Shown in pieces: positions 10,459-64,000 of a stretch of 64,000 bases of DNA. Numbering within the stretch: the first letter of the stretch is position 1; each line of letters begins with the position of its first letter. The stretch covers positions 21,344,001 through 21,408,000 of the forward strand of contig CP086569.2 in assembly GCA_009914755.4 (NCBI GenBank), read 5' to 3'. The notes under the pieces are model-generated. The model saw only the letters and a list, made by a program, of their open reading frames with translations, did no database searches and had not been told where the DNA came from. The DNA comes from the human T2T-CHM13v2.0 reference genome, Homo sapiens. The position numbers were made by a program, and so were the translations under genes.

Positions 10459-14270
<3,812 letters not shown>

Positions 14271-25400: not shown

Positions 25401-25830
25401 GTTAGTTGTACCCTGGCACTAAAAGCAAAGACACATAACCCCACAAAAAATCTTACACACCAATATATCTGATAAATATGCAAAAATCTTCAATAAAATA
25501 CTAGCAAACCAAATGTAATAATACATTAAAAGGGTAATTCATCATGACGAATTGGAACTCATTTCTGGGATTCAAGGATAGTTCAGCATATGCAAATCAA
25601 TCAATGTAATACATCATATCAACAGAATGAAGAGCAAAAATTATTTGTTCATTTCAATTGATGCCATAAAAGCATTTGATAAAATTCAACATATCTTCAG
25701 ATAAAAATTCTAAGAAGAACTGAGGATTGAAGGAACATACTTCCACATAATAAAAACTATATATAACAGAACGACAGTTCATATTATCCTTAATGGTGTA
25801 AAACTGGAAGTCTTTCCTCTATCCATTATA
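22440..25830 (+). mobile_element. Ancient L1 (L1M-type), comprising a long 5'UTR, an ORF1 remnant and the ORF2 N-terminal half, ending abruptly at about 25830
   Basis: ORF2 EN and RT motifs in frame fragments: [43 protein letters not shown]. The element is very degraded. Confidence 0.7.
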
Positions 25831-25859: not shown

Positions 25860-26730
<871 letters not shown>

Positions 26731-27313
26731 AACATCCAAGTATTCTTAAGTAACCATAATTACTACACTTTAGTCATTCAATTTTTTAGGTGTGTAATCT
26801 TGCAAATTATTGCACAGTAGTTGCTGCTGATAAAAGCAAAGTCTTAATTAAACATGCCCAAACAAGTTCTCAACTCAAGGCCTTTGAAACTATTATTTTT
26901 GTAGGCATGTGGGACAACATAAGTGAGATATGCTTCCACTTGGACCCTCATTTGACCCAGAAATTACCTTATTCAACATCCTAATTGGAAAACCTGTACC
27001 TAAATTCTCTGTACATCTCATCTGTTAACTGGATCATATGGTAGGTCAATTTTTAGTTTTTAAAAGAAACTCCAAACTGATCTGTACAGTGGTTGTATTA
27101 ATTTACATTTTGACCAACAGTGTACAAGGGTTTCCTTTTCTCCACATCCTTACTAGCATCTGTTACTGCGTATCTTTGGATATAAGGCATTTTAAATGGG
27201 GTGATACCTTATTGTCATTTTGATTTGAATTTGTCTGATTATCAGTGATGCTCAGCACCTTTTTCTATGCATGTATGCTCTCTATATATCTGCTTTTAAG
27301 TAATACCTATTTA

Positions 27314-27629
27314 GGACAGGCACAGTAGCTCATGCCTGTAATCACAGCATTTTGGGAAGCTAAGGTGGGCTGACCACATGAGGTCAGGAATTCAAGAGCA
27401 GCCCAGCCAAAATGGTGAAACCTCATTTCTACTAAAAATAAAAATTAGCTGGGCATTATGGCAGGTGTTTGAATGTCTCAGCTACTCAAGAGGCTGAGGA
27501 AAGAGAATCACTTGAACCCCGGAAGCAGAGGTTGTAGTGAGCTGAGATTGCCCCACTGCATTCCAGCCTGGTGGACAAAAAAAGATTCTGTCATTAAAAA
27601 AAAAAGAAAAGAAAAAAGAGAAAAATAAA
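27314..27629 (+). mobile_element. Alu SINE nested inside the old minus-strand L1
   Basis: ggacaggcacagtagctcatgcctgtaatcacagcattttgggaagctaaggtgggc ... A-rich tail. Confidence 0.9.
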
Positions 27630-30600: not shown

Positions 30601-30813
30601 ACATGAAATATATTTTCACATCACTTTATTTTCAGGCTATGTGTATTTTTATAGGCAAAGTGTATTTCTTATAGGCAACTGGCGAGTGTCTTATTTTTTC
30701 ATACATTCAGCCAGTCTATTTTAATTGGATAGTTGAGTCCACTTACGTTCAATGATATTATTGATTATTATGAACTTATACCCTGCCATTTTGTGGTTTG
30801 TTTTCTGGGTTTT

Positions 30814-30815
<2 letters not shown>

Positions 30816-30864
<49 letters not shown>

Positions 30865-30868
30865 TCTT
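30816..30868. repeat. (TG)n microsatellite
   Basis: tgtgtgtgtg... Confidence 0.95.
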
Positions 30869-38479: not shown

Positions 38480-41400
38480 GTGTCCTGGTGTCTTTTGGAG
38501 TTACCAATCCTGCTCTGAGGCTGTGGCAGAGAGGGGCTGGATTCTATTTACATACTTGTTTCAAGATTCACAGTGCATCCAAAGTGAGGGTATAAATCTG
38601 TAGGACACAGCTGGACCTGATTCTCCAATGGCTTCATAGCAGGCAAAATATCTTATGTATCTGCAAACAACAAAAATAGAGATCAAATATTGAGATCTAT
38701 ATATATATTAGAGGACTGACTGAAAGTCACCAGTGAACAAGTTTGGTAAGAAATCCCGTGTGTTGTTTCTTAGGTTTTAAATTTTCCCAGAGTATAGCTG
38801 GGGGAGCTGAAATTGAGATTAAGATCAAAAACAAAAACTATTTTGTACACCATCTTGAGATGGTGGCTTTTTTGATATAACACCAAGAAATTTCTTTTGC
38901 AGGCAAAATTGCTCACAAATACCAGTTAAGAGATGCTGTTGTCAATCTAATCAGTTACCTTCCAGAATATTCTTTGGCTTAAGGGACTTCAAGACTATCT
39001 AGTTGTAACTTATAATAATTCTCTATTGATACAGAGTAAATTTGGGACTTTGGCAGTGAAGCTAACACAGAGACTCATCAGTAACTGCTGACAGATGGAA
39101 GCAGGCAAGCTTGTCTGGGTTTATTGCTTAGGTGTTCGCTACACAGGCATAGAAACTCTGCCTACCACAGAATGGACCTGCTCTTGAATAGAGAGGCAAG
39201 CCAATCCTGGTGGCACAGATAGATGAGTTCCCTTTAGGCTCCTGAGGGGAGAAAAAATACCTGAAACGATGCCTTAAAAAGGAGAGAATCTATTTTACAA
39301 AATAACATCAGGGTCCACTGCCAAGACAAGGGTCAGCAGGCAGATTTCATTCTGTTTAGGCTCTACTGCACATGATTCTTCTGCATCTTGTAGAAGATAG
39401 TTTTGTGATTAGGCTCCCAGAATACATGTGAATTTACCCAGCCAAAGGGGCTACTCTTGAGTCCAAATTAAAGAGAACAAATGGCATGTCTGCCACATGA
39501 ATGTTTATTTGCAGTCTCAAAAATCATAGTTCTTGGGCTACACCAGCATTTTACAAATCTCACAGCTGAATCCCAATCACTTTATCAAGAAATAAAGAAA
39601 CTTATGTCCGTGGATGGGTGCAGAATTCTTCTGTTTTGAAGAGACACAAAATGGTGACCTCATATTTCACCATCTTGCTTTTATCATCCTCTATCTTCTA
39701 TTTTTAACAGCTAAAATGTTATTGTACAATGAACACAAAGATTTGCCATTTAACTTAATATCAAAACTATTCACTCTGCACCATGTCTGACAATCAGCAG
39801 TTTCTATGTGTGTGAGGTTATATGTTTGTGTGGGGGTGTAATTGATGTACAGTGGTGAGAAGCAAAAGATAAACCAAATCCCTATGAAATCTTTATGTCC
39901 TTTGAAACACTTTTAAGTTAAAACAGCTTTACTGTGATTTGTAATGTCCTAAGCAGCAGTGCAAAGACATGAGAGCTTTATACACTATGTTGTAACTCTC
40001 CATATGTAAATAGCATGGGGCTGTTCCAATGTGATTTTATTTCTGATATCTTCACCTTTTTTTTCTTAAGCTGACACTGTCATTTCTGAGTTTTCTTACA
40101 TAATGATAATTATCTGCATTTAAAATACATGTTATCCTTAACTTTCAGTTGTTTTTCCCAATGTTTTCTCCTCTTCAACAAAGTGTCTACCCTGTAAGCA
40201 TATGACTTTATCTCACCACTCCTACCTCCTTCCAGTGATACAAATTTGATCTCTGCCTAAGAGTCTTTATCCAAGACGTGACACCATTTCTTAAGAGGTC
40301 CTCTGTCCTAGCTCACCCATTATTTCCTGTGTTTCTTCCTTCTAGCTCTGAACAATATACTCTATTTCTTCCATTACTGCCAATCTGATATAGAAAAAAC
40401 TGATAAATAAGTCAAAACAACCACTGTGTAGCATCTCTTAAGTTGTTTATTTTTTTTAACCGCAGACTGAGAGCTGTTAGCTCAAATTTTACTGGCACAA
40501 GAGACAAAATTTTGCACATCTAGCTATGTTTAAATGAGTTTCAATGAGTAGAATGTAGACATTAGATTTTCTTGGTGTGCAAATTCATAAACTTGGCTCA
40601 GCATTTGCTGAATATTAAATAAATGATTTTATTATATGATGCTAAGCCAGCATTAGAAGTAGAGCTTTTAAAACTTAATTTCTGGAAGGGTTTTGAAGCA
40701 CCATCACAGTGACATACATCTTCTTAAACTCTTGTCTTATCCAGAAATAACCTTACTTAATTCAGCTTTACTGAATTGAAAAATCTGCACCTTTATCCTG
40801 TGTACAATCTCAATTTGTGAGGGTCTTTATCTGTTATGCAAAATTGCACAATAAAGATTGTTGTGTGGTATTTACAGCCATAATGAATTTGTTTTTCTTT
40901 ACTACTTCTCATATCATTTATTCTTCAACAATCATTCTACCTCTGTTAGCTCACAGGTGCATTGCTACATTCAAATATTTACATATCATGTTATTTTTAA
41001 AAGCCAAAATGACACCTTTTCAGCATTTACAATTTTCTTGGTTATTTAAACCCCTCCAGCTTTATTCAGGAGCTGTTAAATATTGATAAGATAGAGGCTT
41101 GTTGCTATATGCTTTCAAGTGCAATTTCTCTTGAAATTTTCTCACCTGGAGTTTCCATGGTAAGTTGCTAAGAGGTATCACCTAGACTTTTAAGTGCATT
41201 ATAGGATACACCCCACTAAGGAGCTGTCTTTCCCTTCTCTCCCTCTTTATCACGGGAGACAGAGAGAAGGAAAAGAAGGAGACTGCAGGAAGAAGACAGA
41301 GAAAAGAAAATACAATAAAGATACAAAGAGAAAAACCTATGATAAAAGACTTGCCGTGAGAGCTGCACTTCTTAATTCTCTCTCAGGAGTTCTCTTCTCC

Positions 41401-44400
41401 TAGACCAGAAGGGACCCATGATAGAGTCTTTGTTTTCCATGTGATTATTGGGAATTCTAAGCAATGAGTTAGCAGAACAAGGACTATGGGTGGGCTGTCT
41501 GCTAACGGTTTGTTAGTCAAGTTTGAGTTAGAAAGAACATCAGAAGACAAAACTGGGCTATGATGATGGCCACAGTGTTGGAACCTTCTGCCACAAAAAT
41601 ATGAGTAGGACTTAAGCCTTAGAACCTCGGAAGCCAATTCAAGGCTGACATGGTGAGTCTCAGGATGAGATAAACTATGGACCATGGGATGCCAGAGCAC
41701 TTTCTCTTGTGAGGCACAGGAGGGCACTGTGTGGGACTGGCTCAACTCACTTTTCTTGCTTCTGCTCAAGATGAAAAAAAAGAAAAAAAAAGGAAGAAGT
41801 TTAAAGATGAAGACAAGGGAGAACATTTGGATTAAGTCAGAAGGAGTAGTGCTTTGGCCACAGCCAAAACCGAAGCTAGCCCACTTGGACATGCTGTGCT
41901 CCAGGATTCTGCCTACCAGCCTGTCCCTGGCCCATTGGTGTCCCCAAGAAGTCAATATCCTGACCTTCTAAAGCACAGTAAGTAAGTAGAATCCCTATCT
42001 TTACGGTCAGGTCCAGCACAAGCATTACCAAATATCAATATGAAGCTTTTATCTTCAGACTTTTCTATCAGAGTAGCACTAAGGCACTATTGTTGAGGTG
42101 GTTGTTCTGAGGATTTCTGCGAATTAACAACAGAGTAGCTAGCCCATTGGCCCTTTGAGGATACAGCAGCTTATATTAAGTTAATCAAGATAATGCCTAG
42201 AACAGAGATGGGTAAGTGATGACCTCAAATTTGTCCAAGAAGGAAGGAAGCTTCAAGGACAGTGGCCCTGAACCTCTGAGAATTCCTGAAACCTTGGAAT
42301 TTTGGCAGCCAACCAGAAATGGGTCTAATCAGTTCCAGGACAGGACACAGCCTGCCCTTAGCAATGCTAAATCTTAAATGCTTGTGGTCTACCCACCATC
42401 CCACAACCTCTTCTAGAGGCCAAAGCAGAAAGGTAACCTGCCTCTTTGTTGTGACTGTGCTCTTACGTGGCTTCTCAGTCCAGCCTTGACAGACAGCTTC
42501 AGGCATACATGGGTCAGGTTACAGAAGCAGTTCCACATAGAAGCCCTTAGCCTATATCCATCAGACTGGGGCCTGCAGGAGCAAGCATTACTGGCTATTG
42601 AATACACGAAAAGGCTGCATATATCTTTGGCTTTTACTCTCTGCATGCATTGAATCCCTTTTGTCATTAGGATTCATAAAAACAGGATCCTACAGTCTTG
42701 GTGCCCTGTGTTCTTAAAGTTGTGCCATCTTTCTTCCAGCTGTGAAATGGTCCCTCTGCAAAAAGAATGTTCTAACAAATTTTTTTCTTCCACCACCATC
42801 CTTGCATGTGTAAATCTTTATTCTGCCCATCAATCCTAAAATCTGACTCTAATACCAAAGGCTCTTTTGTCTTTTTACAAAGACTTCTTAATGTTATTTT
42901 CCTCCAATACTAGACACTGGCCATTCTTACCCTTGCCTTAAGATGCAAATTAAAGACTGTTGTGCCAGCCTTTCCCAATACAGCTTTTGTCTCCACATGA
43001 GCAGGGCTGCTTTTTCAATGAATGACATTTTCGCCAGACCATAGGGAATTACCAGGTGAACAAACTTCCCTTTGCTTCTGTAACCTATCTCATAAACTGT
43101 GTATGTAATCAAGACCTCATGATGCTAAATTAAATTTCTTGTCTTGTACTTCTCTTTAGTGATCTCAGAGAATGGTAAACCACTTTCTGTAATCATAGGG
43201 TCCCCTTAAAAAGAAAGAAAGAAAACATGAAACAAAAGAAACAAGGACACATCCCAGAATACTATTTGTAGCATCTTTGGGCAGGAATTAGACAACAAAG
43301 GACTTCAGAGGTTTTGCTGCCCATCTGGGTCTACTGCTTGGGTCCAGTCAGGTTATACTCCCAGCCTTGTTGCAGTGGCTTCATGTCCTATGAAAGCCTG
43401 ACCCATGACCACTCTGCTTTGAGGTCTTGAGCTGCTTTCAAAAAAAAAAAAAAGACATTTTGGTTGAATAAATATTCAAATATTATGCCTACCAAATAGG
43501 TTGGCCTGGAGTTTGACTGTACTGCACCTATGACCAAAAAAGACTAGAAGCGTGTCTGGGTTTTGCACTCTCAGACCAAACAACCCTAATCTTACAGAAT
43601 TTGGTCAGAAGCAGGGAGGCCTAGCTGTATGATTCAAGTGAGTACAGAATAAGAGAAGTTAAAGACTCTAGAGAAGGGAGTGGTGGAGGCATATTATCCC
43701 TTTGCAGGTAGCAGGTTATTTTGGGGTGGCTTGCTAACACCCTTCCCATCCTCGCCAAGCTGGGCAATTAGAACAAGGTAGAACCAGCAGTTCTGTTATC
43801 TATTTCACAAAGGCTATAGCTGGATAGAAAAGAGAGAGAGGGTCTGAAAAGAGACTTGTCCAGATAATGCCTTGGTCATTTGGGGTCAAAGGTAGCTGTA
43901 GGACCCTTGCCACTGTGGCTACCTACCAGGTCTTCATTCCTATAAACATAATACTTTTCAATACAGTCATGTGCCAATGACTAAGTTCAATGATTGGAAT
44001 ATATACAATGGAGGTCTCATAAGATTATAATGCAACTAAAAAATTCCTATTGTTTAGTGATGCCATAGCGGCTCTGAGGTAGCATCGCATCCCTCAAGTT
44101 TTTGTGGTGACACTGGTGTAAACAACTGATTGCACTGCCAATTGTTTGAGTCTAGCATACATATTACATACATACAATACATAATTCTTATTAATGATAA
44201 CAACCATCCATGTACTGGTATGTACTGTACTGACTATACTGTATTTTCACTATTATTTAGCATATACTCCTACTCTTTACAAAAAAAAAAAGTTAAGTAT
44301 AAGACATATCAGGAGATATTCCAGTACAGGAAATATTTCAGTAGGAGGCATTGTTAACATAGGAGGTGACCCCTGCATGTGTGTTACTGCCCTGTAGACC

Positions 44401-44628
44401 ATCCAGTGGAACAAGATGTGGAGGGGGTGACAATAATATTGAAGACCCTGTCTCTGCATAATACAAGGCTAATGTGTGTGCTCATGCTTTATATTTTAAA
44501 AAATGATTTACATGGAAAAAATTAAGTAACCATTATAAGAGCAGATACAAGCTTATATTATTGAATATAAAATTAATGTTTATTCATCTGTATAATACAT
44601 TTATTTTAACCTAAATTTCATTTAAAGA

Positions 44629-44920
44629 GGGTCAAGCATGGGCATGGTGGCTCACACCCACAGTCCCAGCACTTTGGGAGGTTGAGGTGAGGAATGCTTG
44701 TGCATAGGTATTCAAGAACAACTTGGGAAGCAGGGCAAGGTCCTATTTATACAAAAACTATAATAATTAGCCAGTGTAATTACAGTGACTGTAATTCCAG
44801 CTACTAGGGAGGCTGAATCTGGTAGGTTGAGGTAGCAGTGGGTTATGACTGCATCTCTGTACTGCAGCTTGGGTGACAAAGTGAGACTTTACCTTAAAAA
44901 CAAAACAAAACAAAAACCCT
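44629..44920 (+). mobile_element. Alu SINE (diverged, old), inserted in duplication copy A only
   Basis: gggtcaagcatgggcatggtggctcacacccacagtcccagcactttgggaggttgaggtgagg... Confidence 0.8.
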
Positions 44921-46394
44921 AAATAAAATTTTTAAAAAGAAAAAATAAAATTTAAAAAATCTAAACTTTAAACAAAAATTAAAAGTTTGTAAAGTAAAAA
45001 GTTACAGTAGCAGAGGTTCATTTACTATTAAAGAAAGGTAGTTTTAATAAATGTATATATTCTAAGCATACAATATTTATGTCATAGTAGTTTACACTAA
45101 TGTCCTTGGCCTTTATATTAATTTGCCAATTATTGACTCATCCAGAACAATTTTCAGTCCTAAAATCTGCATTTTAGGACATGCATTTAAGTATGTTCCC
45201 TAAACAGTTATACCACATTGTACTCCTTCCAAAATATTTTTAGTATACCTTTTCAGTATTTCATATGTTTAGATAATAAATACCATTGTGTTATAACTGC
45301 CTACAATATTTAGTATAGTAACCTGCTATGTAAGTTTATAGTCTACAAATCTATACCATATAGTGTGGTATACCATGTAGTGCAAGGTATCCTGTCTTGT
45401 TTGTGAATGTACTCTAAAATGTTCAGCCAATTACAGAATTGCTCCACAATGCATTCAAGTCATTAATTGATGCTTGAGTGTATTTTTAACTAGCCTGAAT
45501 TGGTAGAAATGTGAGTGAGAGAATTTTGTCTTACTTCTTCCCTTAGCGCACACACTTGCTGTAAATTCGGGGAAGTTAATTTGTCATATTATCCCTTCTG
45601 TGATCATTTCTCATTGATGTAGTATAAAGAAATAGAGAATGTGGAAGGACCTATCAAAGGAACATGATGCAACCACACTTGAAATACAATATCAACAGAT
45701 GTGGTTCCTCCTCCAGCAGCACAGTATAAAACATGTTGCCTTGTCTTCTTTGACAGAAACATGAATTTAATATTTACCAACTGTAGTCAGTGGTCAGTCA
45801 TGAACACTAGCACTACTTCCAGACACCCATCCACTTTCTATTTATTTTGGAAGCAATCTGCATTTTACACTTATATTGCATATGCAATTCCATGGCTATG
45901 CTTGGTACTTACTGAATTTGTTGCAAACCTCGTTGAAAAGGAAATGGTGATAACATGCACTAGCTCAAGTATAGAGTGGAGATGCTTTATTCTGCTCATC
46001 TTTTTACTACATTATTTCCAACCTCTTCTCGTGCTCTTGACTTTAAAGGCAGCAGAGTAGTTCTTTTGGAAATTGTACTACTTGATTAAAAAAAAAATAG
46101 GATGCAGAGTATTGCCACCTAACCTGGATTTCCTCGGTTATACTGTGTTTCCTAGTTTATCCTTGTTCTTAACTCCAGTTTCTAATATTAGATATCTGCC
46201 TCTCTACCAAGTGGAGTATTAGAATCTCAAGAAGCTTCTCTAGGCCACAGGTTATATGCCATTGGACTTTATTGACTTCCTCTGAGTACAGAGTTAAAGG
46301 CTGTTATGAAATAGACCATAGTTTAGGTACAAGGTAGTACTCAGTTCAATATGATATTTGTGGACATTTAGAAAACAAAAGGTTGTGATACAAA

Positions 46395-46500
46395 ACGAGT
46401 TAGTGGGTTCAGCGCACCAGCATGGCACATGTATACATATGTAACTAACCTGCACAATGTGCACATGTAACCTAAAACTTAAAGTATAATTTAAAAAAAA
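46395..46500 (+). mobile_element. Severely 5'-truncated L1 3' end (about 105 bp) with a poly-A tail
   Basis: acgagttagtgggttcagcgcaccagcatggcacatgtatacatatgtaactaacctgcacaatgtgcacatgtaacctaaaacttaaagtataatttaaaaaaaaa. Confidence 0.85.
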
Positions 46501-49500
46501 AGTCAGAGTTATTGTTTCTGATGCACAGGCTAGTTCTGTCTTCCCTTTACATAACTATGGTGGTATCTGCAAAGGAAAAATGTTGAAAGTCTGGGAGACA
46601 TATGGTTGTATGATCTCATGCTAAATATGCTTAGAAAAGAGTCTAGCCCATGTATAGCACAGTCCCTGTATCTAACTCTACTTGCTACGCAAATAGTATG
46701 GAAACAAGTTATTTCTTTTTCTAGAATGGTATCTTCTGGCATTTTTGAGCAGTGTCACTGTAGATCCCTGAGAAACTGGTACAGCAAAGAGTGAGTAAGG
46801 CCAGATAACATGTTATTAAATATTACAATGTATCTCTCTGGCCTAGTGTCATACCTGGAACCATTCACATCACATAAAATAAAAAAGCCAGATTTTGGCT
46901 GTGTATTGTTTTTCACCACTCTCCTGTTCATTACCTTTCATCTTATATACCTAAATATATTCTGGCTTTTGTTCCTAAAAAATTTTGAGACTATGGCCTC
47001 CTGCTTCTGCTCCGGCAGAGTGTGGCCATCATTCACACTTTAGACTATCTGCTGTTTTAATAGAACTGTGTATGGGATGAAAATTTTAGAAGGTAAACCA
47101 GTCTGCACTGGAACTTCTTTATTACATACCACAGAAGGCATCTTTACTGACTTGTCCACATGCTCAGTGTAGTGAGTATGAGTGGATTATTTTAATCCAC
47201 TCCTCTAGGTCACTTGGAAAAAGGACATTGTCTGTCTGGTTTTGGCACCAAAGTCTCTTATGTGTAAGTCTTGGTGTGACTCTTTGCCAAGAAGCTCAGT
47301 GCCTCATCCCAATGCTGCTTTATGTGTTGTACGTGTGCAAATGTGACTCATATACAGTAGTAGAAAGAAGCAAAAAACAAAGTGAAACCCCATGAAATCC
47401 ATGTGGACTTTGACACTACTGCAGTACAACTGCATTAATGTGATTGGTAGTGCACCAAGAAGCAGTACAAATAGGTAAAAGCTCTATTCAACTCTGTTGT
47501 AACTACTTAAACATCCACACGTAAATGAAAGGGCATAGCTATGCTTTAATACATATTATTATGGTCACTTAAATTTGAATTTAATGAAAATGTTTATGTG
47601 ACCATTTTTTTAGTGATTTATAGTTGTAAAGAAATAATCTTATTTCTTTGATTGTATAAAAACAGGTAGACGGTGGCTAGCTACAGGCCAAAATTTCTCA
47701 ACCCCTTGTCTGAGGAATCAATAAAGAAAGACATAATTATATTTCAATAAATATCTGTTTCACAATTCTGTATTTCTTTTGCCTCTGTACTTTGTGCTTT
47801 AGTTGTTAAAGTCTTATAAAACAACTAAATAGGTTTGTCTTTCTGTGTTTTTTTGGAAATTTCTCTTTACCCTCTTCCTTTAATAACTAAACCTTGTTTC
47901 TCCTCCAGTTTTCCAAATGATGATAATCACTTGATGTCAATATAAATGTTTTATTTGTCTTTCAATATTTTATCTCATATAATTTTTCCTTATCTCTATA
48001 ACTTTCACATCTGTTAAGGATATGGCCTTAATATTCTACAACTATTTCCTCTCAATTATGTACATATAGTAAAATTCCAACTATGTGTATGCATTGCCAT
48101 CTGGTCCATAATTACTTTTTATATGTTCCTGTGTCCCAGCACTCCGCAATCATGCCTGTATTCTCGTCTTCAATAATATGCTGTCATTCCTCCATTACTG
48201 CCAACATATGATGTATAAATAACTAATATACAAATGAGCCAATGAGGGATTCTGTTTGTTTACTGGTCACCAAGTAACTTATTTTTTTCACTGCAGCCTA
48301 ACCCTTCCAGAAGCAAAGCTATTGTTTTATATATCCAGTTATATTTATAAAGGAAGTCAAAATAAACAGATTTTAGCCATTATATTCTTTTGGTTTGAAA
48401 TGCCCCAAAAACTTTGCTAAATATGTGTTTCAGATAAAATAGAAACTTTTCTGCGCAACCCCAAGACCAGCAGTGAACTTGGAACTTTGGGATGTAAATT
48501 CCTTTTATATCCCAATGTAATGGTCTTTTCAGCAACATTACTTAGATATAATTTCTCTTTGACTCTCTTCTTTATTCAAAATCACCTTAACCTATTTAGC
48601 ACTTGAATGATAATTCCTGCACCTCAACTCTCTTCAGTCTCATACTGTGAGAGTCTTTTCCTCTCATCCAACAATCTGAAATAAAAATTGTGTGTGTTAC
48701 TTCCTCCCATGGTCATTTTTTTTTTGATGACCAGCACCCATCCAGCAATACTTCTATGCATTGCTTCATACAGGTAAATTGCCAAAATTAAATGTTCACC
48801 CATGTTGTTCTTTTTTTAAAAGCTCAAACAGCATATTTTTTATCATTTAGCCTTTTTCTGCTTTTTATACCCCAAAAGATTCATCACCAGGCATCTATTG
48901 GCCATTGATGAGAAAAAGCCTTGCTACTATTGACCTTCAAGGTGCAATTGCTGTTTTAATTCTCTCACTCACTCTCACTGCTGGGTTGCCAAGTGGCATC
49001 ACCCAGACAAATCAGACCCATCTAGAATATGACTACCTGGAAGTCTTTTGCCCTCCTCCCATTCAGGATGATGGCTCCTTTTCTGGGAGAGGTAATAGAG
49101 AAGAGAAACTAGAGACAAATTACAAAAAGGAGAACCAGTTAAATGAAGCCTTAACACCATTCGGTGAGAGCTACTCTTTTCATCAGTCTCTTCCACAAAT
49201 GCTCTCTAAATTTTGTTACTAGAAGGCAGCAACCTCAATGTCAGGGTTCAAGGTGTTATTATTGGGAATTTCCATCATGGTTAAAGTGATGGGTTAGCAG
49301 GACTATGGGTGAGCTATCTACTTACAGCGAGTGTGTCAAATTGGGGTCAGACAGAAAGAGCAGCAAGGAACTAAACTGGGCCATGGTGATGACATTAGAA
49401 AGTCAGCATCTCCTGGCACAACTGTGTAAGCATGGCAACTGTCTTGGGCTCTCTGAAATCAATCCAAAACCCACCTGGTGAGTTACTAGATGACAGATCG

Positions 49501-51741
49501 TGGGGACCCTCTACAGCCAGAGCACTCTTCAACCTGGAATACAAAATAGGGAACTGCAAAATCTGGCTTTTTGTACTCTTTTTCTCAATGATTAGAGAGA
49601 TGAAAAGATAACGAAAAGGTGAGGGTAGGGATACCAGGAAGCAGTTGGACAAGGCAGAAGGAACAACAATGCAGCTATATCCACAAGAAAATCCAGCACT
49701 GTGAACTGTGCCTTGGCTATTTGCTCCTGCTCCTTCACCTCTGCCTGGCTCACAATCATCTCCTAGAAGCAAAAATTCCTTAAAGCACAGTCACGAAGCA
49801 GTATTTCGTCTTTATTTCCAGGTCCAGCTGAAATATAACCACATTTAAATAATGCGGTTTTCAATAATTTTCTTTATCAGAACCTCCCATCAGAGTCCAA
49901 GGGCAGAATTTGTTGAAGTGAGTGTTTTGACAGGATCTAAGAAAGAGTATCAGGACAGCTCAGGGACCCTATAGGGCACTGGAGGCACCAGGTGAGTAAA
50001 ACAACATGATATGTAAAACAAAGACATAGGTTACTGCTGACATGGGCTATGGCCAGGGTGGAAAGAGGCTTCAAGGACTGTGAAAACTAACCTTTGTACA
50101 TTTCCAAAATTGTGATATTTTGGAAGCCAAGCAGGAGCTGTTCTGATAGGTTTCAGGATAACGGCCTGCCATCCTGGAGTTGCTGATGAAATGCCTGTCA
50201 TTCCCTATACAAAGAAAGGCTGTTTGCAGGCTTACTTACCATTCACTTGCCTGCCCACGTATGCAGAAGTACAGAATGGGAGTGAGAAGGAAGGAGTCAG
50301 GTGACCTTTCAGGTTGTTGGTACGATGCTCTGGTTTGCTTTGTTGTGCTGACTTGGAGAGAAAGCTTAGCACACGATTCTGGGTATAGAAGCCTTAATGC
50401 CTAAGCAGCTCCTGGCTTAGGTTCACTGCCCTGAGAACTGCAGAAGCATAGACAACATGTTTTTTCATGCAAGTGAAAGCTGTAAAAACCTATAACCTTA
50501 ATAGCATGAATGTATTGATTCACTTATATCATCTTGCTCAAAAGCAGAGCAGGATTTTACCACCTTGATATTATGAGTACTTAGGATGTTGCCACTTATT
50601 TTTCAGCTGTGAAAATGTCCACTGCAGAATGCAGCATCTTCTAGAAAACCTTCCTGACAAGTTTCTTTCCTCCATCACTGTCTCAGGGTATGAGATTTTT
50701 AGTTTGCTGACAAATCTCTTTTGTCTGCTGACAACTACTTCTATGAATCTTTCCGCATACCAGACCCTGACAAAATTCACCCATATACTAAAGGTCCCAA
50801 TAAGAAACTCCTAGCCCCAGCTTTCCCCAATGTACCTCTGTCTCCACAAAACCTGGGCTACTACTGTACTGAATTACATTTCCTCCCCACCAAATAAGAT
50901 GCCGGTAAACAATCTTTCATTTGCTTCTGTAATCCATTTTACAAACTGTATTTATAATCAAGGCCCCAGGATGCTAGATGGACCCAACATTCAGTCCCAT
51001 TTCTAATGCCCATTTCTAATGCAGTAAGGGCAAGGGACTTTGCAAATATGGGATTCCTTGACAAAGACAGAGAAAAATAGAAAGAAAAACAAACAAGAAC
51101 ACATCCTATAATACATTCATTACTATGGCATATATGAACATGAATGGGGTAGTAAAAGCCCCTACAGATGTCTGCTTTGTATCTGGGTCTGCTCTGTGAG
51201 TCCATCTGAGTTATTTCCAGACCCAGGACAGTTACATTATGTCCTGAGCAAGCCCAAAGTACAGCCACCTGCTTTGAGATTTACCCTTTTATTGTGCCCC
51301 TCCCTTAAAGCTCTTATCATTATTTTTTGATCAGCCAGGGAATGTCCTGTGTCAGGTCTTGAGTTGGTTGATAAGCAGTGGCTCTAAGAAAGGTCAGCTA
51401 AGTTGGGCTGGTACACTCTCAGCCCTTTGACATCTCCTAATATATTGGCCTAGCAGGAAAAACAGTCAGAGACAAAGCAGGAGTGTACCTGAGATGAAGC
51501 GGAATTTAAGAATTGGAAGCTCAAACCCTGACACTTCCTGGCACACACACTGAGCTACGAAGTATTGTGTAATCTCTAAGGTCAGGCTTCTGGGTTCCTG
51601 AGAGACTCACAGTGGAAGACAACTGCAAGTCAGGTGCAGGGGTCCTCTGTCTTCTGCAATGGGAAGAAAGGCACTTCTGGAATTTTCTACTCAACTTTTC
51701 CCCTGTATTACGTAAAATAGGATTAAGAAGCAAAAAAAAAA

Positions 51742-52028
51742 ATTTTTTTAGACGGAGTCTCACTAGGTTGCCCAGGCTGGAGTGCAGTTGCACAATCTCG
51801 GCTCGCTGCAACTTCTTTCTCCTGAGTTCAAGTGATTCTCCTGGCTCAGCCTCCCCAGTAGCTAGGATTACAGGCACATGTCACCACACCTGGCTAATTT
51901 TTATATTTTCAGTACAGACAGGTTTTCACCATGTTGGCCAGACTGGCTGGTCTCGATCTCCTGACCTCGTGATCCGCCCGCCTCAGCCTCCCAAAGTGCC
52001 AGGATTAAAGACATAAGCCACCACATAC
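51742..52028 (-). mobile_element. Alu SINE
   Basis: Poly-T followed by agacggagtctcactaggttgcccaggctggagtgcagt ... cctcccaaagtgccaggattaaagacataagccacc. Confidence 0.9.
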
Positions 52029-52789
52029 ATCCCCATAAAAAGCAAATTTTGAGCAAAGTTGTATCTTATCAACCAGGATTCAGATTGGAGACCACCTGGT
52101 AATACTGAGTGCTGTATGCTTTTGCTTTCAACCAGCATCATCACAAATGTCTTCCAAAGCCAGGATCCCTCTAAACACTTGCTTCCCTCCACTGATATGC
52201 ACTGTGACCCCAAAATGGTGGAGCAGAGAGTTAGTGGCATCTCAGTCCTTCAAATGTGCACCACTATTATTGTACAGTAGCAAGGGACTACCAAGTATGG
52301 GCAGATTCTTGACATCATACACTTGGACTACTTACTTTAGACTTCTTTTCTCCTGAATACAATTCACTGCCAGTTGACAGACATCCACAAAGTTTGAAAA
52401 TAGGGACTGTGTGACCCAACTTATGACACAGTCTGAATTACTGTTGGCATGATCATTGCTATTGCTCTCAAGATAATGCAATGATTTTTCATTAGTTGAG
52501 AACTCTGTGCAGAAAAAATAAAATAAAAATATATTACTTCAAATTACTAACTTTTCTTCATGAGAAGCAGCCAGAATGGAAACACAAAATTCCCACAGAA
52601 CATAATTGGTATTCTATGCTTTTGAGAGTAACTGCCAGTCCAAGGAAAGTGATTACAATGTGATTGAATTTTTTTAAAGCATGGCATGTTGTAGCAGTTG
52701 TAAGTTAGCATGCCTTCATTATGTTTGTGTCATTGCTGAGGTAAATATTCTACTTCACTGCCAGTCCTGTGAGTCTAGCATATATATAT

Positions 52790-53170
52790 ACACACATACA
52801 GATACACATATGCACACACACATTAAAATACATATGTATTTATATATAAAAATATATAATATATAAATATATAAATGTATATATGTATTTTATATATATT
52901 AAATATATAAATATAAAAAACATAAAATATATCTCATATATAATAGAATAGTATTATTTAATATATTATACATATTTATATATAAAATATATTATCTATT
53001 ATATATGATATAAAACATATTTTAATATATATTTATATATAAAATAATTACCTGTTATTAAGTTTTATGTATGGAACATTTATATATTTACATAATACAA
53101 TATATAACATATATTTATATATATAAATGCTCAATACATAAAATTTAATAATAAAATGTAACTATTTTAA
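52790..53170. repeat. Long AT-rich simple-repeat tract ((TA)n / (TATATAAA)-like; low complexity)
   Basis: atatatatatacacacatacagatacacatatg... then extended ta/at-rich units. Confidence 0.85.
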
Positions 53171-53234
53171 CAACAAATGACTTACATATTGCCTATATCA
53201 TACTTTTTTATTATTACCCTAGAATATGTTTCTT

Positions 53235-54335
53235 CTATTTTTTATTTTAAATTTTAGATTTTGTGGATACATAGTAGGTATATATATTTATGGGGAAAAT
53301 TACATATTTTGTTACAGGGATGCAGAGAGTGATAATCACAATAATAAGGAATGCGACATACATCCCCTCAGGCATTTATCTTTTGTATTGGCAACAGTTC
53401 AATTAAAGTGTTTTAGTAATTTTAAACATACAGTTAAATTATTATTAAATATAGCCATTCTGTTGTGCTATCAAATACTAGGTCCTGTTCTTCCTTTCTA
53501 ATTATTTTTGTACCCATCCCCCCCTCGCACATCATCCCCACTACCCATCCGAGCCTCTGGCAACCATCTTTCTACTCTTTATCTCCATTAGTCCAATTAT
53601 TTTGATTTTTAGATCCCACAAATAAGTGAGAACATGTGATGCTTGACCTCTAGTTTCATCCATGTTTCAAATAACAGAATCTCATTTTCTTTATGCATAA
53701 ATAGTACTCCACTCCATTGTACCACATTTTCTTGATCCGGTCATCTATTAAACAGGAATGTAAAATAGTACATTCCTGGTGAATCACTGATCATCAGGGA
53801 AATGCAACATCAACATCATTAATCATCTGGGAAATGCACATTAAAATTACAGGGAGATACCATCTCATGCCTGTTAAAATGGCTTGTAGCAAAAAGACAG
53901 GTAATAACAACTGGCTTATAGCCAAAAGACAGGCAATAACAACTGGCTTATAGCCAAAAGACAGGCAATAACAACTGGCTTATAGCCAAAAGACAGGCAA
54001 TAAGAATTTCTGACAAGGATGTGGACAAAGACAGGCAATAACAATTGGCTTATAGCCAAAAGGATGTGGAGAAAGGCAATAAAAATTGGCTTATAGCCAA
54101 AAGACAGGAATAACAATTTCTGACAAGGATGTGGAGAAGATGGAACTTTGTATGAACAGTTTTGAGGTCTCTCAAAAAACTAAAAATAGAGATACCATAT
54201 GGTCAACTAATCCCATTGCTGGGTATACACTCAAAAGAAAGAAAATCAGTGTGTTGAAGAGTTTGTTATAGCACTGTTCACCATTGCTAATATCTGAAAG
54301 CAACCTGTGCCTATCAACAGAATAAACTTCTATTA
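53235..54335 (-). mobile_element. Old L1 (L1PB/L1MA-type) 3'-terminal insertion with a twin-priming inversion. The minus-oriented direct segment is 53235-53760 (terminal about 520 bp of the 3'UTR). The inverted plus-oriented segment is 53770-54335 (ORF2 C-terminal region). It contains an internal tandem array at 53893-54115
   Basis: 53480-53640 reads tacccatccccccctcgcacatcatccccactacccatccgagcctctggcaaccatctttctactctttatctccattagtccaattattttgatttttagatcccacaaataagtgagaacatgtgatg, the reverse complement of an old L1 3' end. 53770 onward translates to LIIWEMHIKITGRYHLMPVKMACSKKTGNNNW ... PIAGYTLKRKKISV (L1 ORF2). The two segments abut in L1 coordinates at IKKMWY / STDEW. Confidence 0.75.
53893..54115 (+). 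repeat. Tandem array of about 30 bp (about 4 units) plus longer 60-bp units, derived from the L1 ORF2 KKTGNN..CGE segment
   Basis: caaaagacaggcaataacaactggcttatagc x3, then ...caaggatgtggacaaagacaggcaataacaattggcttatagccaaaaggatgtggagaaaggcaataaaaattggcttatagccaaaagacaggaataacaatttctgacaaggatgtggagaag. Confidence 0.85.
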
Positions 54336-55734
54336 TTATTTAAGTTAAGTTGATGTTAGCCTCACACAGATTCTTCAGCAACTATTCCAGTAGAATACAT
54401 TGTTGTCATGGGAGATAACAGCTGCACACCTGTCATTCAAAGATGTAAGACAGCTCCACACCTGTTTACTTGAAAAGCTTTCAGTAAGACAAGGTGTGAA
54501 GGTGGAAAGTGGCTATATTGACATGTAACACAGTACAGGCCTAGTACAACATGCATGTTTGTAGCTCAGTTTTTATAATGTTGTAAATGTAAAAAAAAAA
54601 TTAAAAACATTCATAAGAATGTACAGAAATAAGATATTGTTTGTGCACCAGTACAATATACTTGTATTATAATTTTAAGTTAAATTATTAGAATATAAAT
54701 TTTAACAGAATTTCCAAGTTTATGGAGTGAAAAATCTACAGTATCTGGTAAGTTTTTGAAGAATGACACTTTATAAGATAAATTTAATGCAGCCTAAGTA
54801 TATAGTATTTATAATGCATAGTAGTGTACAGCAGGGCACTGGGCCTTCACATTCATTTACCATTCACTCACTGACTTACCCAGAACATCTTTCTGTCCTG
54901 CATTCTTCTCTCATTGTAAGTACTCTATATAGGTGTACCATATTTCACATCCTACATAACATGTTTACTGTACTTTTTAAATTTTTACACATGCTTAGAT
55001 GTAAAAATACTACTTTGTTATAATTGGCTTCAATATTTAGTATAGTAATAAATAGGATTGCAGCCTACAATGGATAGGCTATATGTTATAACTTTGGCAT
55101 GTAGTAGGCTATATTTATTTGTGAAAGTAAACTCTAAATTGTTCACTCAATAATGGAATTGCCAAAAATGCCTTTAAATCATTAAAAAATGCTTTAATGT
55201 ATTTGTAATTAGTTTGCATTGGTGGTGCCAGTGGGAGAATGGGAAGCTTGTCTTACTTTTTCCTTCAATCCACACACTTTCTGTAGCCCCAGAGTAGTTA
55301 ATTTATAGTATTTATTTTCTTAGATGATGCATTACTAGGGCTTTTATAAGGGAAAGAGGAAGTGGCAGGAACTCCCAGAGAAACAGGGTGTAACCACACT
55401 AAAAAATTGAAAAGCAGTTGCTCTGGTTTCTCTTCTAGCAGGATGCTATATAACATGCTTTTTTTTCTTACCTCTATAGACCTTTGAATTCAATAGCAAA
55501 TATTTTCTGCAGGACTCCTCCATGTCATCTAGGTTCAGACACTCACCCAGCATCTCTTTATTCAGGCATCAACCTGTACTCTGCATGTACATTGCATGTA
55601 CATCTACCACAATGTTTGGTCCTTGGTGATGTTGTCGAACCTATCTATAGAAGGAACAGGTGGTCAAATGTTAATATGCTTTTCAACTTGTTCCACTAGT
55701 GTATTAAATAGATGCATTTTATCCATATACACTA

Positions 55735-55752
55735 GCCTCAATGTATTCTCTC
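55735..55752. repeat. (TC)n short microsatellite
   Basis: tctctctctctctttcc. Confidence 0.8.
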
Positions 55753-58374
55753 TCTCTCTTTCCTTTTATTGTCTATTAGATGAACAAACCGAGGCAGAAT
55801 ATCTTGCCCCTAGGATTCCTGTCTGTAAAAACCAACAGTAGCATTTTCATTTGTTCCTGGGACATTACAGAAAATGGGGGGCACTTGCTCAAGAGATTTC
55901 CCACCGTGAACACTGAGAAAGAATCCATGTTCAAAACTTAGAACTACATTACTGTAGGCTTCTAGGGGTTTCTGGGGATAGCAGCTAGGAATGGATGAGG
56001 GAAAATCTTAAACTGGATTATCTCAGGTATGGAAGGTTAAGTTATTCTATCCTGCCCTGCTTCTCACTCTATTCTGCCTATTCCTTTTCTTTGGTTTCAG
56101 TATTGAATGCAAGACAGTATTCCCTTTGCTAAGTGTACTGCTGGTCTAGAAAATATTTAGTAATATGCAGATTGTCTAGCAGGATGATTTTTAGGGGTTC
56201 ACATTTTCTAGTTTATAAGATCTTTCCCTGGAAACATCTCTTTCCCAATATTAGATATTGGCCAATATCCAAGTTGCAGCTTTGAAACCTTAGGAAGTCT
56301 CTTTGGACCACAGTGCTTATGTAGATTGCCTTTCTTCAGAGGAGATGCAGAGAAATGCTTGGGAAATGCATTTCCCCCATCTTGACATCTAATTTAGAAC
56401 AAAAATATTTTCTCACCTAGAAAAATATTGTTTCCTTTGAAAGGAGACAGTTCTCAGTCTTCTTTGCAACTTCCTATTAACCAATGACTGCTTTCTTACT
56501 TTACCCTATTCAAACTGTTTTCCTGCATGGGAGAGTTGTGCCTTTTTTCAACCTCAATTACCTTTCTGAAATGTAAAGGGAAAGGGAAAGCTTTCTGACT
56601 TAATTATAATAACTCTAGGCTCTGGCAATGTGTGTTTGATTCTTTCTGGAGATAAAGTACACTACCATGTGTTTCTTCCTCTTGAGAGCAGTAAAAAGTG
56701 GAGTGGGAGCCATTGAGATGAGAGAAAAAGGAAATCATAACTCTCTGATGTATTTTGTGCTGGTGATTTCTCCATCAGGGAGACAAGCTTGAGCTTAATT
56801 ACTGTCCAATGGAGTTAAACCCCTTGGCTGGGGAAGGGGAAATCTCCCATGGCATGTGGCAGAAAATGCCAGCCAGATGCCCTGGGTGCCTTGGGTCATG
56901 CATCCCAGCCCAGCAGGGAGGGGAGAAGTGAAAAACTGCTGCTCACTAGTCCGTCTTGTAAAAGGAATGAAGGCCATGTAAAGGACCCAGACCCCTTAAG
57001 CTCAGATGTTCGAAGATAAAAAGGCTTACAAACCACAGTGAGAGGTTTTGATTCCCTATTTTCCTCACCACTTCTTCAGGCCCCACATGGCATGCCTAAA
57101 AATATCGCAGGACATTTCCTTAGTTCAGCTAAAGATAAGATCCTTGTCTCATAACCACAAAAATTTAGTCTCACAGATGGTTTGAAAGGTGAGTAAAGCA
57201 AGGCTTTATTGGGTGAAATTTTTTTAAAAAAGGAAAAATAGGGACTCTCCACAAGGCTAGAGTTCCTCTCATTTGCTTCCCGCCTCACAGTTTGAATTCC
57301 AGGTTTTACACAGGAATAGGAGGGGCAAGGCTTCTCCCCACTGCAAATGTCATGAACTTCCGTGGCTCCATCTCAGTGTGCATTCCTCCCAGTGTGCAGG
57401 TTCGCTGACATTTTGCAAGAAACCCCCTCACAACTTTCTGTCTCAGCATAAAATCAGAATAAAGCTATCATTCTTTCTTGTGGTCTTTAGTGCAGCTCTC
57501 TTTCTAAAGTCCTAAAAGATAAAGACAAATGCAATAGAAATTGCCACACATTGCTTCAGTAATGTTCACAAAACCATAATGTTTTAGAAGCCACTCCTCT
57601 CTTTTTTTCCCCTAAGTTGGATACATATTTAGAGTATCCATGAGACAAATTACAGGAATACAAGCTGTCTCAAATCATTAAAACCACATGGGCATCCCAC
57701 CCAGAAAGCTGGCTAAGTGACTTGGTGTCACCTTGTTCACAGCAGAAGTTGTAGTCTACAGCCTCTATTCTTGCCACCAAACTTTTGATTTCCAATGAGA
57801 ATTAAAAGCCCACAGTTCCAGCATGCAGGCCACATGTCTGAAAACAACCTTTAAAACTACAACCCAGAACAAAGGAAGGGACTGTGATTCTTAGAGAAGT
57901 AAGTGCTTTTCAACTTCAAATCTCAGGCCAAGCATAGGCTCATTTAGGAATTTGGTGCCACTAGCATGAGGCAAAACATATATTAGAGAAGACTCACTCT
58001 GAAATAAAACCATGTAACAGGTTTTTACCAGAGAAACTAAGTGACCTAGGCTGAGTAGGCAAAATGAGCCCAGCAGCCCCCAGTCAAACTTGGGCAAAAA
58101 AGTCACCAGCCAATAAGTTTTTCTGTGACACTCACAAGGCTAAAGTTTATTTTCCCCTGTGGATAAAGCAGTTTTTATGAAAAGAAAATAGTAAAATAAC
58201 TATTTCATTGGTCTCTTTTTTCATAATCAAGATAATCTTGAATTAGTTAACAGCATAAAAATTTTTATATCAACACTAGTAGCAAAGTCAGCCAATTCAA
58301 ACTAAGCAAAAAATACATATGTAAGCAAAAGTATGTATACTTTATAGTTGTAGACTTTTAAAAATAACGATTTG

Positions 58375-58690
58375 TGGACCAGACACTATGGCTCTCACCT
58401 GTACTCCCAGAACTTGGGGAGCCTGCGGCAGGCAGATCACTTGATCTTGGGAGTTCAAAACCAGCCTGGCCAATGGTATGAAACCTGTCTCTAAAAAAAA
58501 AATACTAAAAATTAGCCAGATATGGTAGCATGTGCCTATAGTCCCAGCTGCTCAGGAGGCTGAGGCATGATAATCACTTGAACCCAGGAGGCAGAGGTTT
58601 TAGTAAGCCAAAATTGCACCACTGTACTCTATTCCAGGTGACAGATGAACATGGTCCTGACATAAAGCAATACAAATAAAAACAAAATAA
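58375..58690 (+). mobile_element. Alu SINE
   Basis: ggaccagacactatggctctcacctgtactcccagaacttggggagcctgcggcaggcagatcacttga ... A-rich tail. Confidence 0.85.
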
Positions 58691-59391: not shown

Positions 59392-59407
59392 AAGAGAGAT
59401 GAAATGG

Positions 59408-64000
<4,593 letters not shown>

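What the first reader, a model, noticed from the sequence alone, without database searches (positions are those of the whole stretch)
39780..57070. Ancient tandem duplication of a ~7.5 kb unit that predates the Alu and L1 insertions into each copy
Block A (about 39.8-47.3 kb) and block B (about 47.3-57 kb) are colinear and in the same orientation, and they differ heavily (by eye 25-35%). Anchor pairs read directly from the sequence follow. A 39.85 kb aagcaaaagataaaccaaatccctatgaaatc matches B 47.37 kb aagcaaaaaacaaagtgaaaccccatgaaatc. A 41.45 kb gattattgggaattctaagcaatgagttagcagaacaaggactatgggtgggctgtctgc matches B 49.25 kb gttattattgggaatttcc..gggttagcaggactatgggtgagctatctac. A 42.7 kb cttccagctgtgaaatggtccctctgcaaaaag matches B 50.6 kb tttcagctgtgaaaatgtccactgcagaatg. 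A 43.08 kb cttctgtaacctatctcataaactgtgtatgtaatcaag matches B 50.92 kb cttctgtaatccattttacaaactgtatttataatcaag. A 45.7 kb tggttcctcctccagcagcacagtataaaacatg matches B 55.43 kb tggtttctcttctagcaggatgctatataacatg. A 46.15 kb ctaatattagatatctgcc..ctctaggccacag matches B 56.25 kb ccaatattagatattggcc..ctttggaccacag. The end of A adjoins the start of B, so the duplication is tandem. Each copy carries private insertions: an old (diverged) Alu and an L1 tail in A; an Alu, an AT-rich tract and an old twin-primed L1 in B. The duplication is therefore older than all of these insertions, i.e. very old. A third partial homolog of one sub-segment sits at 25860-26440. Such old local duplications often mark the birth of paralogous regulatory elements or ncRNA exons, and I see no TE family that explains the unit.
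Basis: seen in the sequence. Interest (0 to 1): 0.6.

Follow-up and report, generated by a model that had tools for sequence, protein, structure and literature searches.

The report
Old near-tandem duplication of non-coding DNA
A stretch of about 6.4 kb of primate non-coding DNA, which already held a DNA transposon, was copied about 1 kb downstream roughly 70-110 million years ago; both copies have since decayed like neutral DNA, so this is a real but ordinary relic.

Summary
Block A (39823-46273) and block B (47328-56336) are colinear on the same strand. They share 4672 aligned columns at 66.7% identity (largest HSP E 1e-171; reversed-sequence control 37 bits against 592).

The unit is not a transposable element. 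Six-frame Pfam scans of A and B find nothing, while equally old L1s in the window score RVT_1 and L1 ORF1 domains. There are no LTRs, terminal inverted repeats or poly-A tail. Both copies also carry the same ~1.2 kb Tc1/mariner-like DNA transposon at the same relative place, with a homologous 3' flank and shared indels. So composite genomic DNA was copied as a block.

Private insertions came later: a very old Alu cleanly splits A, and an AT-rich tract plus an old L1 splits B.

Three caveats:
- A 1054-bp spacer between A and B has no counterpart after B, so the ends do not strictly abut.
- The "L1 tail" lies in that spacer, not in copy A.
- A third partial copy (25867-27020, split by an Alu) is equidistant from A and B.

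Identity is flat (100-column maximum 0.76). There are no Rfam hits and no CpG island, so nothing suggests function. Low interest.

The parts
39823..46273 (+). Copy A of the duplicated unit (about 6.45 kb including a private Alu)
   Evidence: Colinear HSPs to B. No Pfam domain in any of the six frames.
47328..56336 (+). Copy B of the duplicated unit (about 9.0 kb including about 2.9 kb of private sequence)
   Evidence: Colinear HSPs to A. No Pfam domain in six frames of 47300-51300.
46274..47327 (.). Spacer between A and B. It has no counterpart after B or before A, and it contains a short L1 3' tail at 46386-46500.
   Evidence: Local and global alignments against 56337-58400 and 38480-39822 are no better than shuffles. 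The L1 tail is 88% identical to L1PA 3' ends in the window.
25867..27020 (+). Copy C, a partial third copy of the first ~1 kb of the unit, split by an Alu at 26440-26730 and bounded on both sides by 3'-truncated old L1s
   Evidence: BLASTN to A 40034-40812 and B 47772-48286. It is the only hit of an nhmmer profile built from A+B. Three-way identities are A-B 0.59, A-C 0.63, B-C 0.61.
43964..45480 (+). Tc1/mariner-like non-autonomous DNA transposon inside copy A, flanked TA|...|TA and interrupted by the Alu
   Evidence: A consensus recalled from memory aligns at 1-689 and 680-1169, E 4e-98 and 4e-61. Junctions were read.
52651..55199 (+). The same DNA transposon inside copy B. Its first ~66 bp are missing, and it is interrupted by the 52940-54375 insertion.
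   Evidence: Consensus positions 337-1160 align to 54342-55166, E 2e-95, and positions 67-193 align to 52651-52766. The 3' junction and downstream flank are homologous to A, and A and B share indels relative to the consensus.
44640..44942 (+). Private, very diverged Alu in copy A
   Evidence: 69% identical to an AluS consensus, 74% at non-CpG sites. Both flanks are homologous to contiguous B sequence 54427-54676 | 54677 onward.
52940..54375 (.). Private insertion in copy B: an AT-rich tract (about 52880-53240) plus old L1 3' fragments in both orientations (53535-53746 minus, 53799-54328 plus), consistent with twin priming
   Evidence: The flanking HSPs are only 18 bp apart in A (44309 / 44327). 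L1 matches are 62-74% identical to the L1 copies in the window. Sequence read.
51743..52025 (-). Alu in copy B, inside a stretch (51279-52650) that has no counterpart in A
   Evidence: 86% identical to the AluS consensus. A 43424-43963 against B 51279-52650 shows no homology.
47505..47863 (+). Segment present in B and partly in C (B 47772-47864 aligns with C 25867-25937) but reduced to 51 bp in A, indicating a deletion in A
   Evidence: Three-way alignment and the HSP limits.
55671..56008 (.). 338-bp segment private to B, of unknown nature
   Evidence: Gap between HSPs 44943-45957 / 54677-55670 and 45951-46273 / 56009-56336. No match to any other private segment.

Best explanation
This is the relic of a single germ-line structural mutation. 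A stretch of at least 6.4 kb of non-coding genomic DNA was copied in direct orientation about 1 kb downstream of itself. That DNA was already composite: unique sequence plus a resident Tc1/mariner-like DNA transposon.

The event was either a near-tandem duplication by replication slippage, template switching or unequal exchange, or a strict tandem duplication later altered at the junction. A ~1 kb piece of the unit's 5' end was copied to a third site upstream at about the same time.

Since then both full copies have evolved as neutral DNA, at about 0.22-0.33 substitutions per site per copy. Each has independently collected Alu and L1 insertions and deletions. The element has no detectable present function.

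Shown here: the homology, its colinearity, the shared embedded transposon, the order of the private insertions, and the absence of coding, RNA-family or CpG-island signal.

Inferred: the mechanism of duplication and the absolute age. The age is roughly 70-110 Myr, because divergence is slightly above that of the old L1 pair in the window and about equal to that of the oldest Alu.
For: Homology and colinearity:
- HSPs reach E 1e-171 and 1e-100. The reversed-sequence control gives 37 bits.

Identity is flat, with no exon-like peak:
- 100-column mean 0.61, SD 0.059, maximum 0.76.

The unit is not TE-like:
- No Pfam domain in six frames of A or B.
- The same method detects RVT_1 (6.8e-7, 9.4e-6) and the L1 ORF1 dsRBD domain (8.8e-5) in L1s of similar age, K2P 0.37.
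- No LTR or TIR structure within the unit.
- No LTR-like relation among the pre-A, spacer and post-B sequences.

The unit is composite DNA:
- The same DNA transposon lies at colinear positions in A (43964-45480, TA|...|TA) and B (52651-55199).
- The 3' flank is homologous and A and B share indels against the consensus.
- At non-CpG sites, A=B but different from the consensus at 68 positions. About 27 are expected from independent decay (972 x 0.258 x 0.319 / 3, from the numbers).
- Three-point branch lengths are A 0.23, B 0.33, and consensus to the A/B ancestor 0.09-0.11.

Private insertions are clean.

No sign of function:
- No Rfam family and no tRNA.
- CpG o/e is 0.09-0.12.
Against: - The copies do not abut. 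The 1054-bp spacer has no homolog after B, so a simple head-to-tail model needs a later insertion, deletion or replacement.
- Copy C is no more distant from A and B than they are from each other (site patterns 133/116/103, not significantly unequal). A repeat family would give the same star-like pattern.
- No TE library (Dfam/Repbase) and no source genome were available, so the copy number of the unit elsewhere is unknown.
- The transposon consensus came from memory. The alignment is objective, but the family name and the accuracy of the consensus are unverified.
- Transversions exceed transitions in the A-B alignment (0.185 vs 0.149). Some columns are probably misaligned, so the distances are rough.
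Confidence: 0.85

Rival explanations
1. A, B and C are independent insertions of an uncharacterised long (about 6 kb) non-coding or composite repeat family that happened to land close together in the same orientation.
For: Three-way distances are star-like, and C is as close to A and B as they are to each other. Homology has fairly defined ends, and an unmatched 1 kb spacer lies between A and B.
Against: - No reverse transcriptase, integrase, transposase, gag or ORF1 remnant, while the controls are detected.
- No LTR, TIR or poly-A tail.
- The unit contains a complete foreign DNA transposon with its own TA duplication and a flank shared by A and B.
- Three same-orientation copies of a rare long family within 30 kb would be a large coincidence (inference).
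- No other copy exists in the remaining ~45 kb of the window.
Confidence: 0.06
2. The blocks are two members of a tandemly duplicated gene, exon or regulatory cluster that is still under selection (paralogous exons, enhancers or lncRNA exons).
For: Tandem duplications are the usual origin of such clusters (established knowledge). The longest ORFs of A (41383-41955, minus strand, 190 aa) and B (49395-49772, minus strand, 125 aa) lie at colinear positions.
Against: - Identity is uniform with no peak above 0.76 per 100 columns.
- Protein-level similarity is no better in one frame or strand than in another.
- No Pfam domain and no Rfam family.
- CpG o/e is about 0.1 with no island.
- An ORF of that length is expected about once per window by chance (own estimate).
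- Branch lengths of A, B and C are similar: 0.28, 0.32 and 0.24, derived from the distances.
Confidence: 0.05
3. One copy arose by retroposition (an L1-mediated transduction or a retrocopy of a long transcript) rather than by DNA-level duplication.
For: The region is dense in L1s, and copy C directly touches two L1 elements.
Against: - No poly-A tail or recognisable target-site duplication at the ends of A, B or C.
- The L1 next to C is truncated about 100 codons before its ORF2 stop, so C is not downstream of an L1 3' end.
- A and B have no L1 at either end.
Confidence: 0.03
4. The similarity is a chance or compositional artefact of AT-rich DNA.
For: The region is 37-38% GC and identity is only about 60-67%.
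Against: E-values reach 1e-171 and about 6 kb is strictly colinear. The reversed-sequence control gives at most 37 bits. Local alignment z is 25 in the known-homolog control (45951-46273 vs 56009-56336), against less than 3 for unrelated segments.
Confidence: 0.01

Closest known systems
Ancient local duplications below the segmental-duplication threshold, as seen in whole-genome self-alignments (e.g. self-chain type analyses; PMC3136455 describes length distributions of duplicated sequence in genome self-alignments)
   Same: Direct-orientation copies a few kb long and a few kb apart, with identity far below 90%, non-coding, and riddled with younger repeats.
   Different: Nothing essential differs. 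This instance adds a third partial copy and a 1 kb unmatched spacer.
Classical segmental duplications / low-copy repeats (operational definition: at least 1 kb and at least 90% identity; established knowledge)
   Same: A DNA-level copy of a composite genomic segment that carries resident repeats along with it.
   Different: Identity is 67%, not 90% or more. It is far too diverged to drive non-allelic homologous recombination or to be listed in SD catalogues.
Nested-insertion chronology of mammalian transposons (Giordano et al. 2007, PMC1914374)
   Same: The same logic is used here. An element that interrupts another is younger, so the order is: DNA transposon, then duplication, then Alu in A and L1 in B.
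   Different: That work orders TE families genome-wide. Here the logic dates one duplication.
Tandem gene-cluster duplications (globin, olfactory receptor or protocadherin type)
   Same: Unit size and spacing of a few kb in direct orientation.
   Different: No exon, ORF or domain is conserved between the copies, and both look neutral.

Membership tests
Tandem (head-to-tail) duplication | Two copies in the same orientation and colinear | tested here: met
   Five plus-strand colinear HSPs and an extra homologous segment.
Tandem (head-to-tail) duplication | The end of copy 1 directly abuts the start of copy 2, or the spacer is itself part of the repeated unit | tested here: not met
   The 1054-bp spacer 46274-47327 has no homolog after B or before A. 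Only 115 bp of it is explained, as an L1 tail. A later insertion or deletion could reconcile this but was not shown.
Segmental duplication (catalogue definition) | Length of at least 1 kb | tested here: met
   4672 aligned columns over about 6.4 kb.
Segmental duplication (catalogue definition) | Identity of at least 90% | tested here: not met
   66.7% over aligned columns.
Segmental duplication (by mechanism: a copy of composite genomic DNA) | The copies share resident repeats at the same relative position with the same flanks | tested here: met
   The same DNA transposon is present in A and B, with a homologous 3' junction, flank and shared indels. There is an excess of shared derived sites.
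Autonomous transposable element (LINE, LTR/ERV, DNA transposon) as the unit itself | Remnants of reverse transcriptase, integrase, transposase, gag or ORF1 | tested here: not met
   Six-frame Pfam scans of A (39780-43500, 44000-46400) and B (47300-51300) find nothing below E 0.04. Controls of similar age are positive. B 54350-56400 was not scanned.
Autonomous transposable element as the unit itself | Terminal structures: LTRs, TIRs or a poly-A tail | tested here: not met
   Direct and inverted comparison of unit ends is no better than shuffles. Flank and spacer comparisons are negative. The ends were read directly.
Interspersed repeat family (any) | Many dispersed copies in the genome | not testable with these tools
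   No source genome or Dfam/Repbase library is available. Within the window only A, B and C exist.
Tc1/mariner-superfamily DNA transposon (the embedded element only) | Terminal inverted repeats and a TA target-site duplication | tested here: met
   The termini of the recalled consensus are inverted repeats (18 of 23 bases, read directly). The A copy reads TA|CAGTCATG...CTTGAGTG|TA, and about half of the TIR positions are still complementary. The family name rests on memory and is unverified.
L1 (the elements flanking copy C) | ORF2 reverse transcriptase and ORF1 domains | tested here: met
   RVT_1 at 6.8e-7 and 9.4e-6, and Tnp_22_dsRBD at 8.8e-5. tblastn with the L1PA ORF2 C-terminus gives E 5e-27.
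Known structured RNA family | A match at Rfam gathering score | tested here: not met
   No matches in the whole window and no tRNA.

The most novel reading that the evidence does not exclude
The three copies are not a one-off duplication. Either they are members of an undescribed long composite repeat that spread locally, or one of the decayed copies hides a lineage-specific regulatory element or lncRNA exon born from the duplication. That would be invisible here because only paralog-to-paralog comparison was possible.
Probability: 0.05. Interest if true: 0.35.

Novelty: new member of a known kind. Interest (0 to 1): 0.15.

Why it matters
It matters little beyond annotation. It is a clean worked example of ordering events by nested insertions: DNA transposon, then duplication, then Alu and L1. 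It also shows how far below the 90% catalogue threshold a local duplication can still be recovered. It would matter more only if comparative or epigenomic data showed constraint in one copy.

Tried and rejected
- **Unit as L1.** No DNA or protein similarity to any L1 in the window, including the ORF2 C-terminus.
- **Copy C as the missing 3' end of the adjacent old L1.** Rejected: L1 ORF2 protein homology stops abruptly at 27029, and the conserved downstream motif is absent from C.
- **ERV-like array (LTR-int-LTR-int-LTR).** Pre-A, spacer and post-B are mutually unrelated.
- **Internal LTR or TIR.** None found.
- **RPL37A pseudogene** suggested by a weak Pfam hit (E 0.044). tblastn gives 22% identity, so this is chance.
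- **MIR and L2 3'-end consensus sequences recalled from memory.** No hits in the unit. An apparent L2-like motif at about 40270-40310 was therefore dropped.
- **Further copies.** A relaxed BLASTN, Smith-Waterman with shuffles and an nhmmer profile of A+B find only C.
- **Relations among the private segments and the spacer.** None.
- **Large shared protein-database, structure and collection searches.** Not used: there is no credible protein to search, and the DNA collections hold no primate genomes.
Full report
**Observation**

A relaxed BLASTN of 39780-47300 against 47301-57070 returns five colinear plus-strand HSPs:
- 39823-39997 / 47328-47504
- 40049-43423 / 47864-51278 (3549 columns, 59.6%, E 3e-171)
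- 44066-44309 / 52692-52939
- 44943-45957 / 54677-55670 (65%, E 1e-100)
- 45951-46273 / 56009-56336

A short sixth match, 44327-44377 / 54376-54426, also lies on the chain. A global alignment adds 44378-44639 / 54427-54676 (z 8.3 against 200 shuffles).

Over gap-free columns the copies share 4672 positions at 66.7% identity, K2P 0.44. The control, A against reversed B, gives at most 36.8 bits against 592.

**Anatomy**

Copy A is 39823-46273 and copy B is 47328-56336. Between them lies a 1054-bp spacer (46274-47327). Only 46386-46500 of it is explained, as an L1 3' tail 88% identical to the young L1s of the window. The spacer matches neither 56337-58400 nor 38480-39822. The copies are therefore near-tandem, not strictly abutting, and the "L1 tail in A" cannot be ordered against the duplication.

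Private material:
- In A, an Alu at 44640-44942. It is 69% identical to an AluS consensus and 74% at non-CpG sites. Both flanks are homologous to contiguous B sequence, so it is a clean insertion.
- In B, a 1436-bp insertion at 52940-54375. It consists of an AT-rich tract and old L1 3' fragments in both orientations. Their coordinates fit a twin-primed minus-strand L1.
- In B, an Alu at 51743-52025 (86% to consensus). It lies within 51279-52650, which has no counterpart in A 43424-43963.
- In B, an unexplained 338-bp segment at 55671-56008.
- B 47505-47863 is partly shared with copy C, so the 51 bp at this place in A reflect a deletion in A.

**Third copy**

Copy C is 25867-26439 plus 26731-27020, split by an Alu. 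It corresponds to the first ~1 kb of the unit. It is the only hit of an nhmmer profile built from A+B.

On 752 shared columns the identities are A-B 0.59, A-C 0.63 and B-C 0.61. Site patterns are AC|B 133, BC|A 116 and AB|C 103, which is star-like. C is bounded on both sides by old L1s whose 5' ends point outward:
- L1 on the plus strand at 22464-25818 (RVT_1 9.4e-6).
- L1 on the minus strand at 33757-27029 (ORF1 dsRBD 8.8e-5, RVT_1 6.8e-7).

Both L1s are 3'-truncated where they meet C. In the minus-strand L1, ORF2 protein homology stops at 27029, about 100 codons before the stop. C is therefore not an L1 3' end, and the site has been rearranged.

**Is the unit a transposable element?**

Six-frame Pfam scans of A (39780-43500 and 44000-46400) and of B (47300-51300) give nothing better than E 0.04. 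The one weak hit, Ribosomal_L37ae, is chance. The same procedure detects L1 domains in the two old L1s, whose mutual divergence (K2P 0.37) is close to that of A-B. The negative result is therefore meaningful.

Other tests:
- No LTRs or TIRs in the unit.
- No LTR-like relation among pre-A, spacer and post-B.
- No poly-A at the unit ends.
- No similarity to L1.
- No further copies in the window.

**Decisive positive evidence**

While reading A 43960-44060 I recognised the terminus of an interspersed DNA transposon. The family name is unverified. Its termini, CAGTCATGCG... and ...CGCACGACTG, are inverted repeats.

That sequence aligns as follows:
- A 43964-44635 and 44954-45455, E 4e-98 and 4e-61
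- B 54342-55166, E 2e-95
- B 53103-53240, a further weak match (E 1.6e-6) that lies inside the B-private AT-rich tract and is not counted as part of the element
- B 52651-52766, consensus positions 67-193

In A the element reads TA|CAGTCATG...CTTGAGTG|TA at 43964-45480, the Tc1/mariner hallmark. In B it ends ...CTTTAATG|TA at 55199.

The evidence that A and B inherited one insertion:
- The sequence downstream of the element is homologous in the two copies.
- A and B share a 14-bp and a 5-bp deletion relative to the consensus.
- At 972 non-CpG columns, A=B but different from the consensus at 68 sites. About 27 are expected from independent decay.

The transposon was therefore already in place when the segment was copied. 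The unit is composite genomic DNA, not one mobile element.

**Order and age of events**

Three-point JC branch lengths on the transposon are A 0.23, B 0.33, and consensus to the A/B ancestor 0.09-0.11. The B value is inflated by poor alignment in AT-rich parts. The last value is an upper bound, because it includes subfamily differences and recall errors.

Half of the A-B K2P is 0.22. Branches derived from the C comparison are 0.24-0.32. For scale:
- The two old L1s differ by K2P 0.37.
- The young L1 pairs differ by 0.04-0.12.
- The Alu in A differs from its consensus by 26-31%.

The order is DNA transposon, then duplication (with C at about the same time), then the Alu in A and the L1 in B, then the younger Alus and L1PA elements. 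With usual mammalian neutral rates (established knowledge) this puts the duplication at roughly 70-110 Myr. It is no younger than the oldest Alus and about the age of late L1M families. This absolute age is an inference.

**Function**

- Identity along the alignment is flat: 60-column windows range 0.37-0.80 and 100-column windows have mean 0.61, SD 0.059 and maximum 0.76.
- Translated similarity is equal on both strands.
- Rfam at gathering thresholds finds nothing in the whole window, and there are no tRNAs.
- CpG o/e is 0.09-0.12 with no island.

Nothing indicates that either copy is constrained. Constraint limited to one copy cannot be excluded without other species.

**Verdict**

It is one more member of a well-known kind, and interest is low.

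Noticed in passing
window 22464-25818 (+) and 27029-33757 (-): Two old L1 elements of the same family (K2P 0.37) lie tail to tail with their 5' ends outward. Each has a ~1.9 kb 5' UTR (22464-24350 and 31879-33757, 65% identical). Both are 3'-truncated exactly where they touch copy C. L1s are not normally 3'-truncated, so a deletion or rearrangement happened here. An ancient inverted duplication of one L1 was not excluded.
   Followed up: partly
window 44640-44942: This Alu is unusually diverged: 69% identity to an AluS consensus recalled from memory, 74% at non-CpG sites. The other Alus in the window are 77-86% identical. The cause could be a very early Alu or a locally high substitution rate.
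   Followed up: partly
window 8370-14413 and 59406-64000: Two long plus-strand L1s are 89% identical over 4.6 kb (K2P 0.12) and bracket the whole region 51 kb apart. The second runs off the window end. They are most simply two insertions of one L1PA-type subfamily. A larger duplication was not excluded.
   Followed up: no
window 19482-19970 vs 21948-22426: An inverted repeat pair of about 490 bp at 66% identity, of unknown nature, lies just upstream of the old plus-strand L1.
   Followed up: no
window 52880-53240: An AT-rich, partly self-complementary tract (52907-53291 matches its own reverse complement at 64%) lies next to the old L1 fragments inside copy B. It may be an expanded L1 poly-A region.
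   Followed up: no
window 41383-41955 (-) and 49395-49772 (-): The longest ORFs of copy A (190 aa) and copy B (125 aa) lie at colinear positions on the minus strand. Neither has a Pfam domain, and their similarity is no better than the DNA identity predicts. Judged to be chance.
   Followed up: partly
window 43440-43454: A pure A15 run lies exactly where A-B homology breaks off (43423). It is followed by 540 bp (43424-43963) with no counterpart in B. It could be the tail of an unrecognised retroposed insert, or a microsatellite.
   Followed up: no
window about 30790-30850: A (CA)n-type microsatellite lies inside the old minus-strand L1. It was seen as a THTHTH... run in the translation, and the coordinates are approximate.
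   Followed up: no
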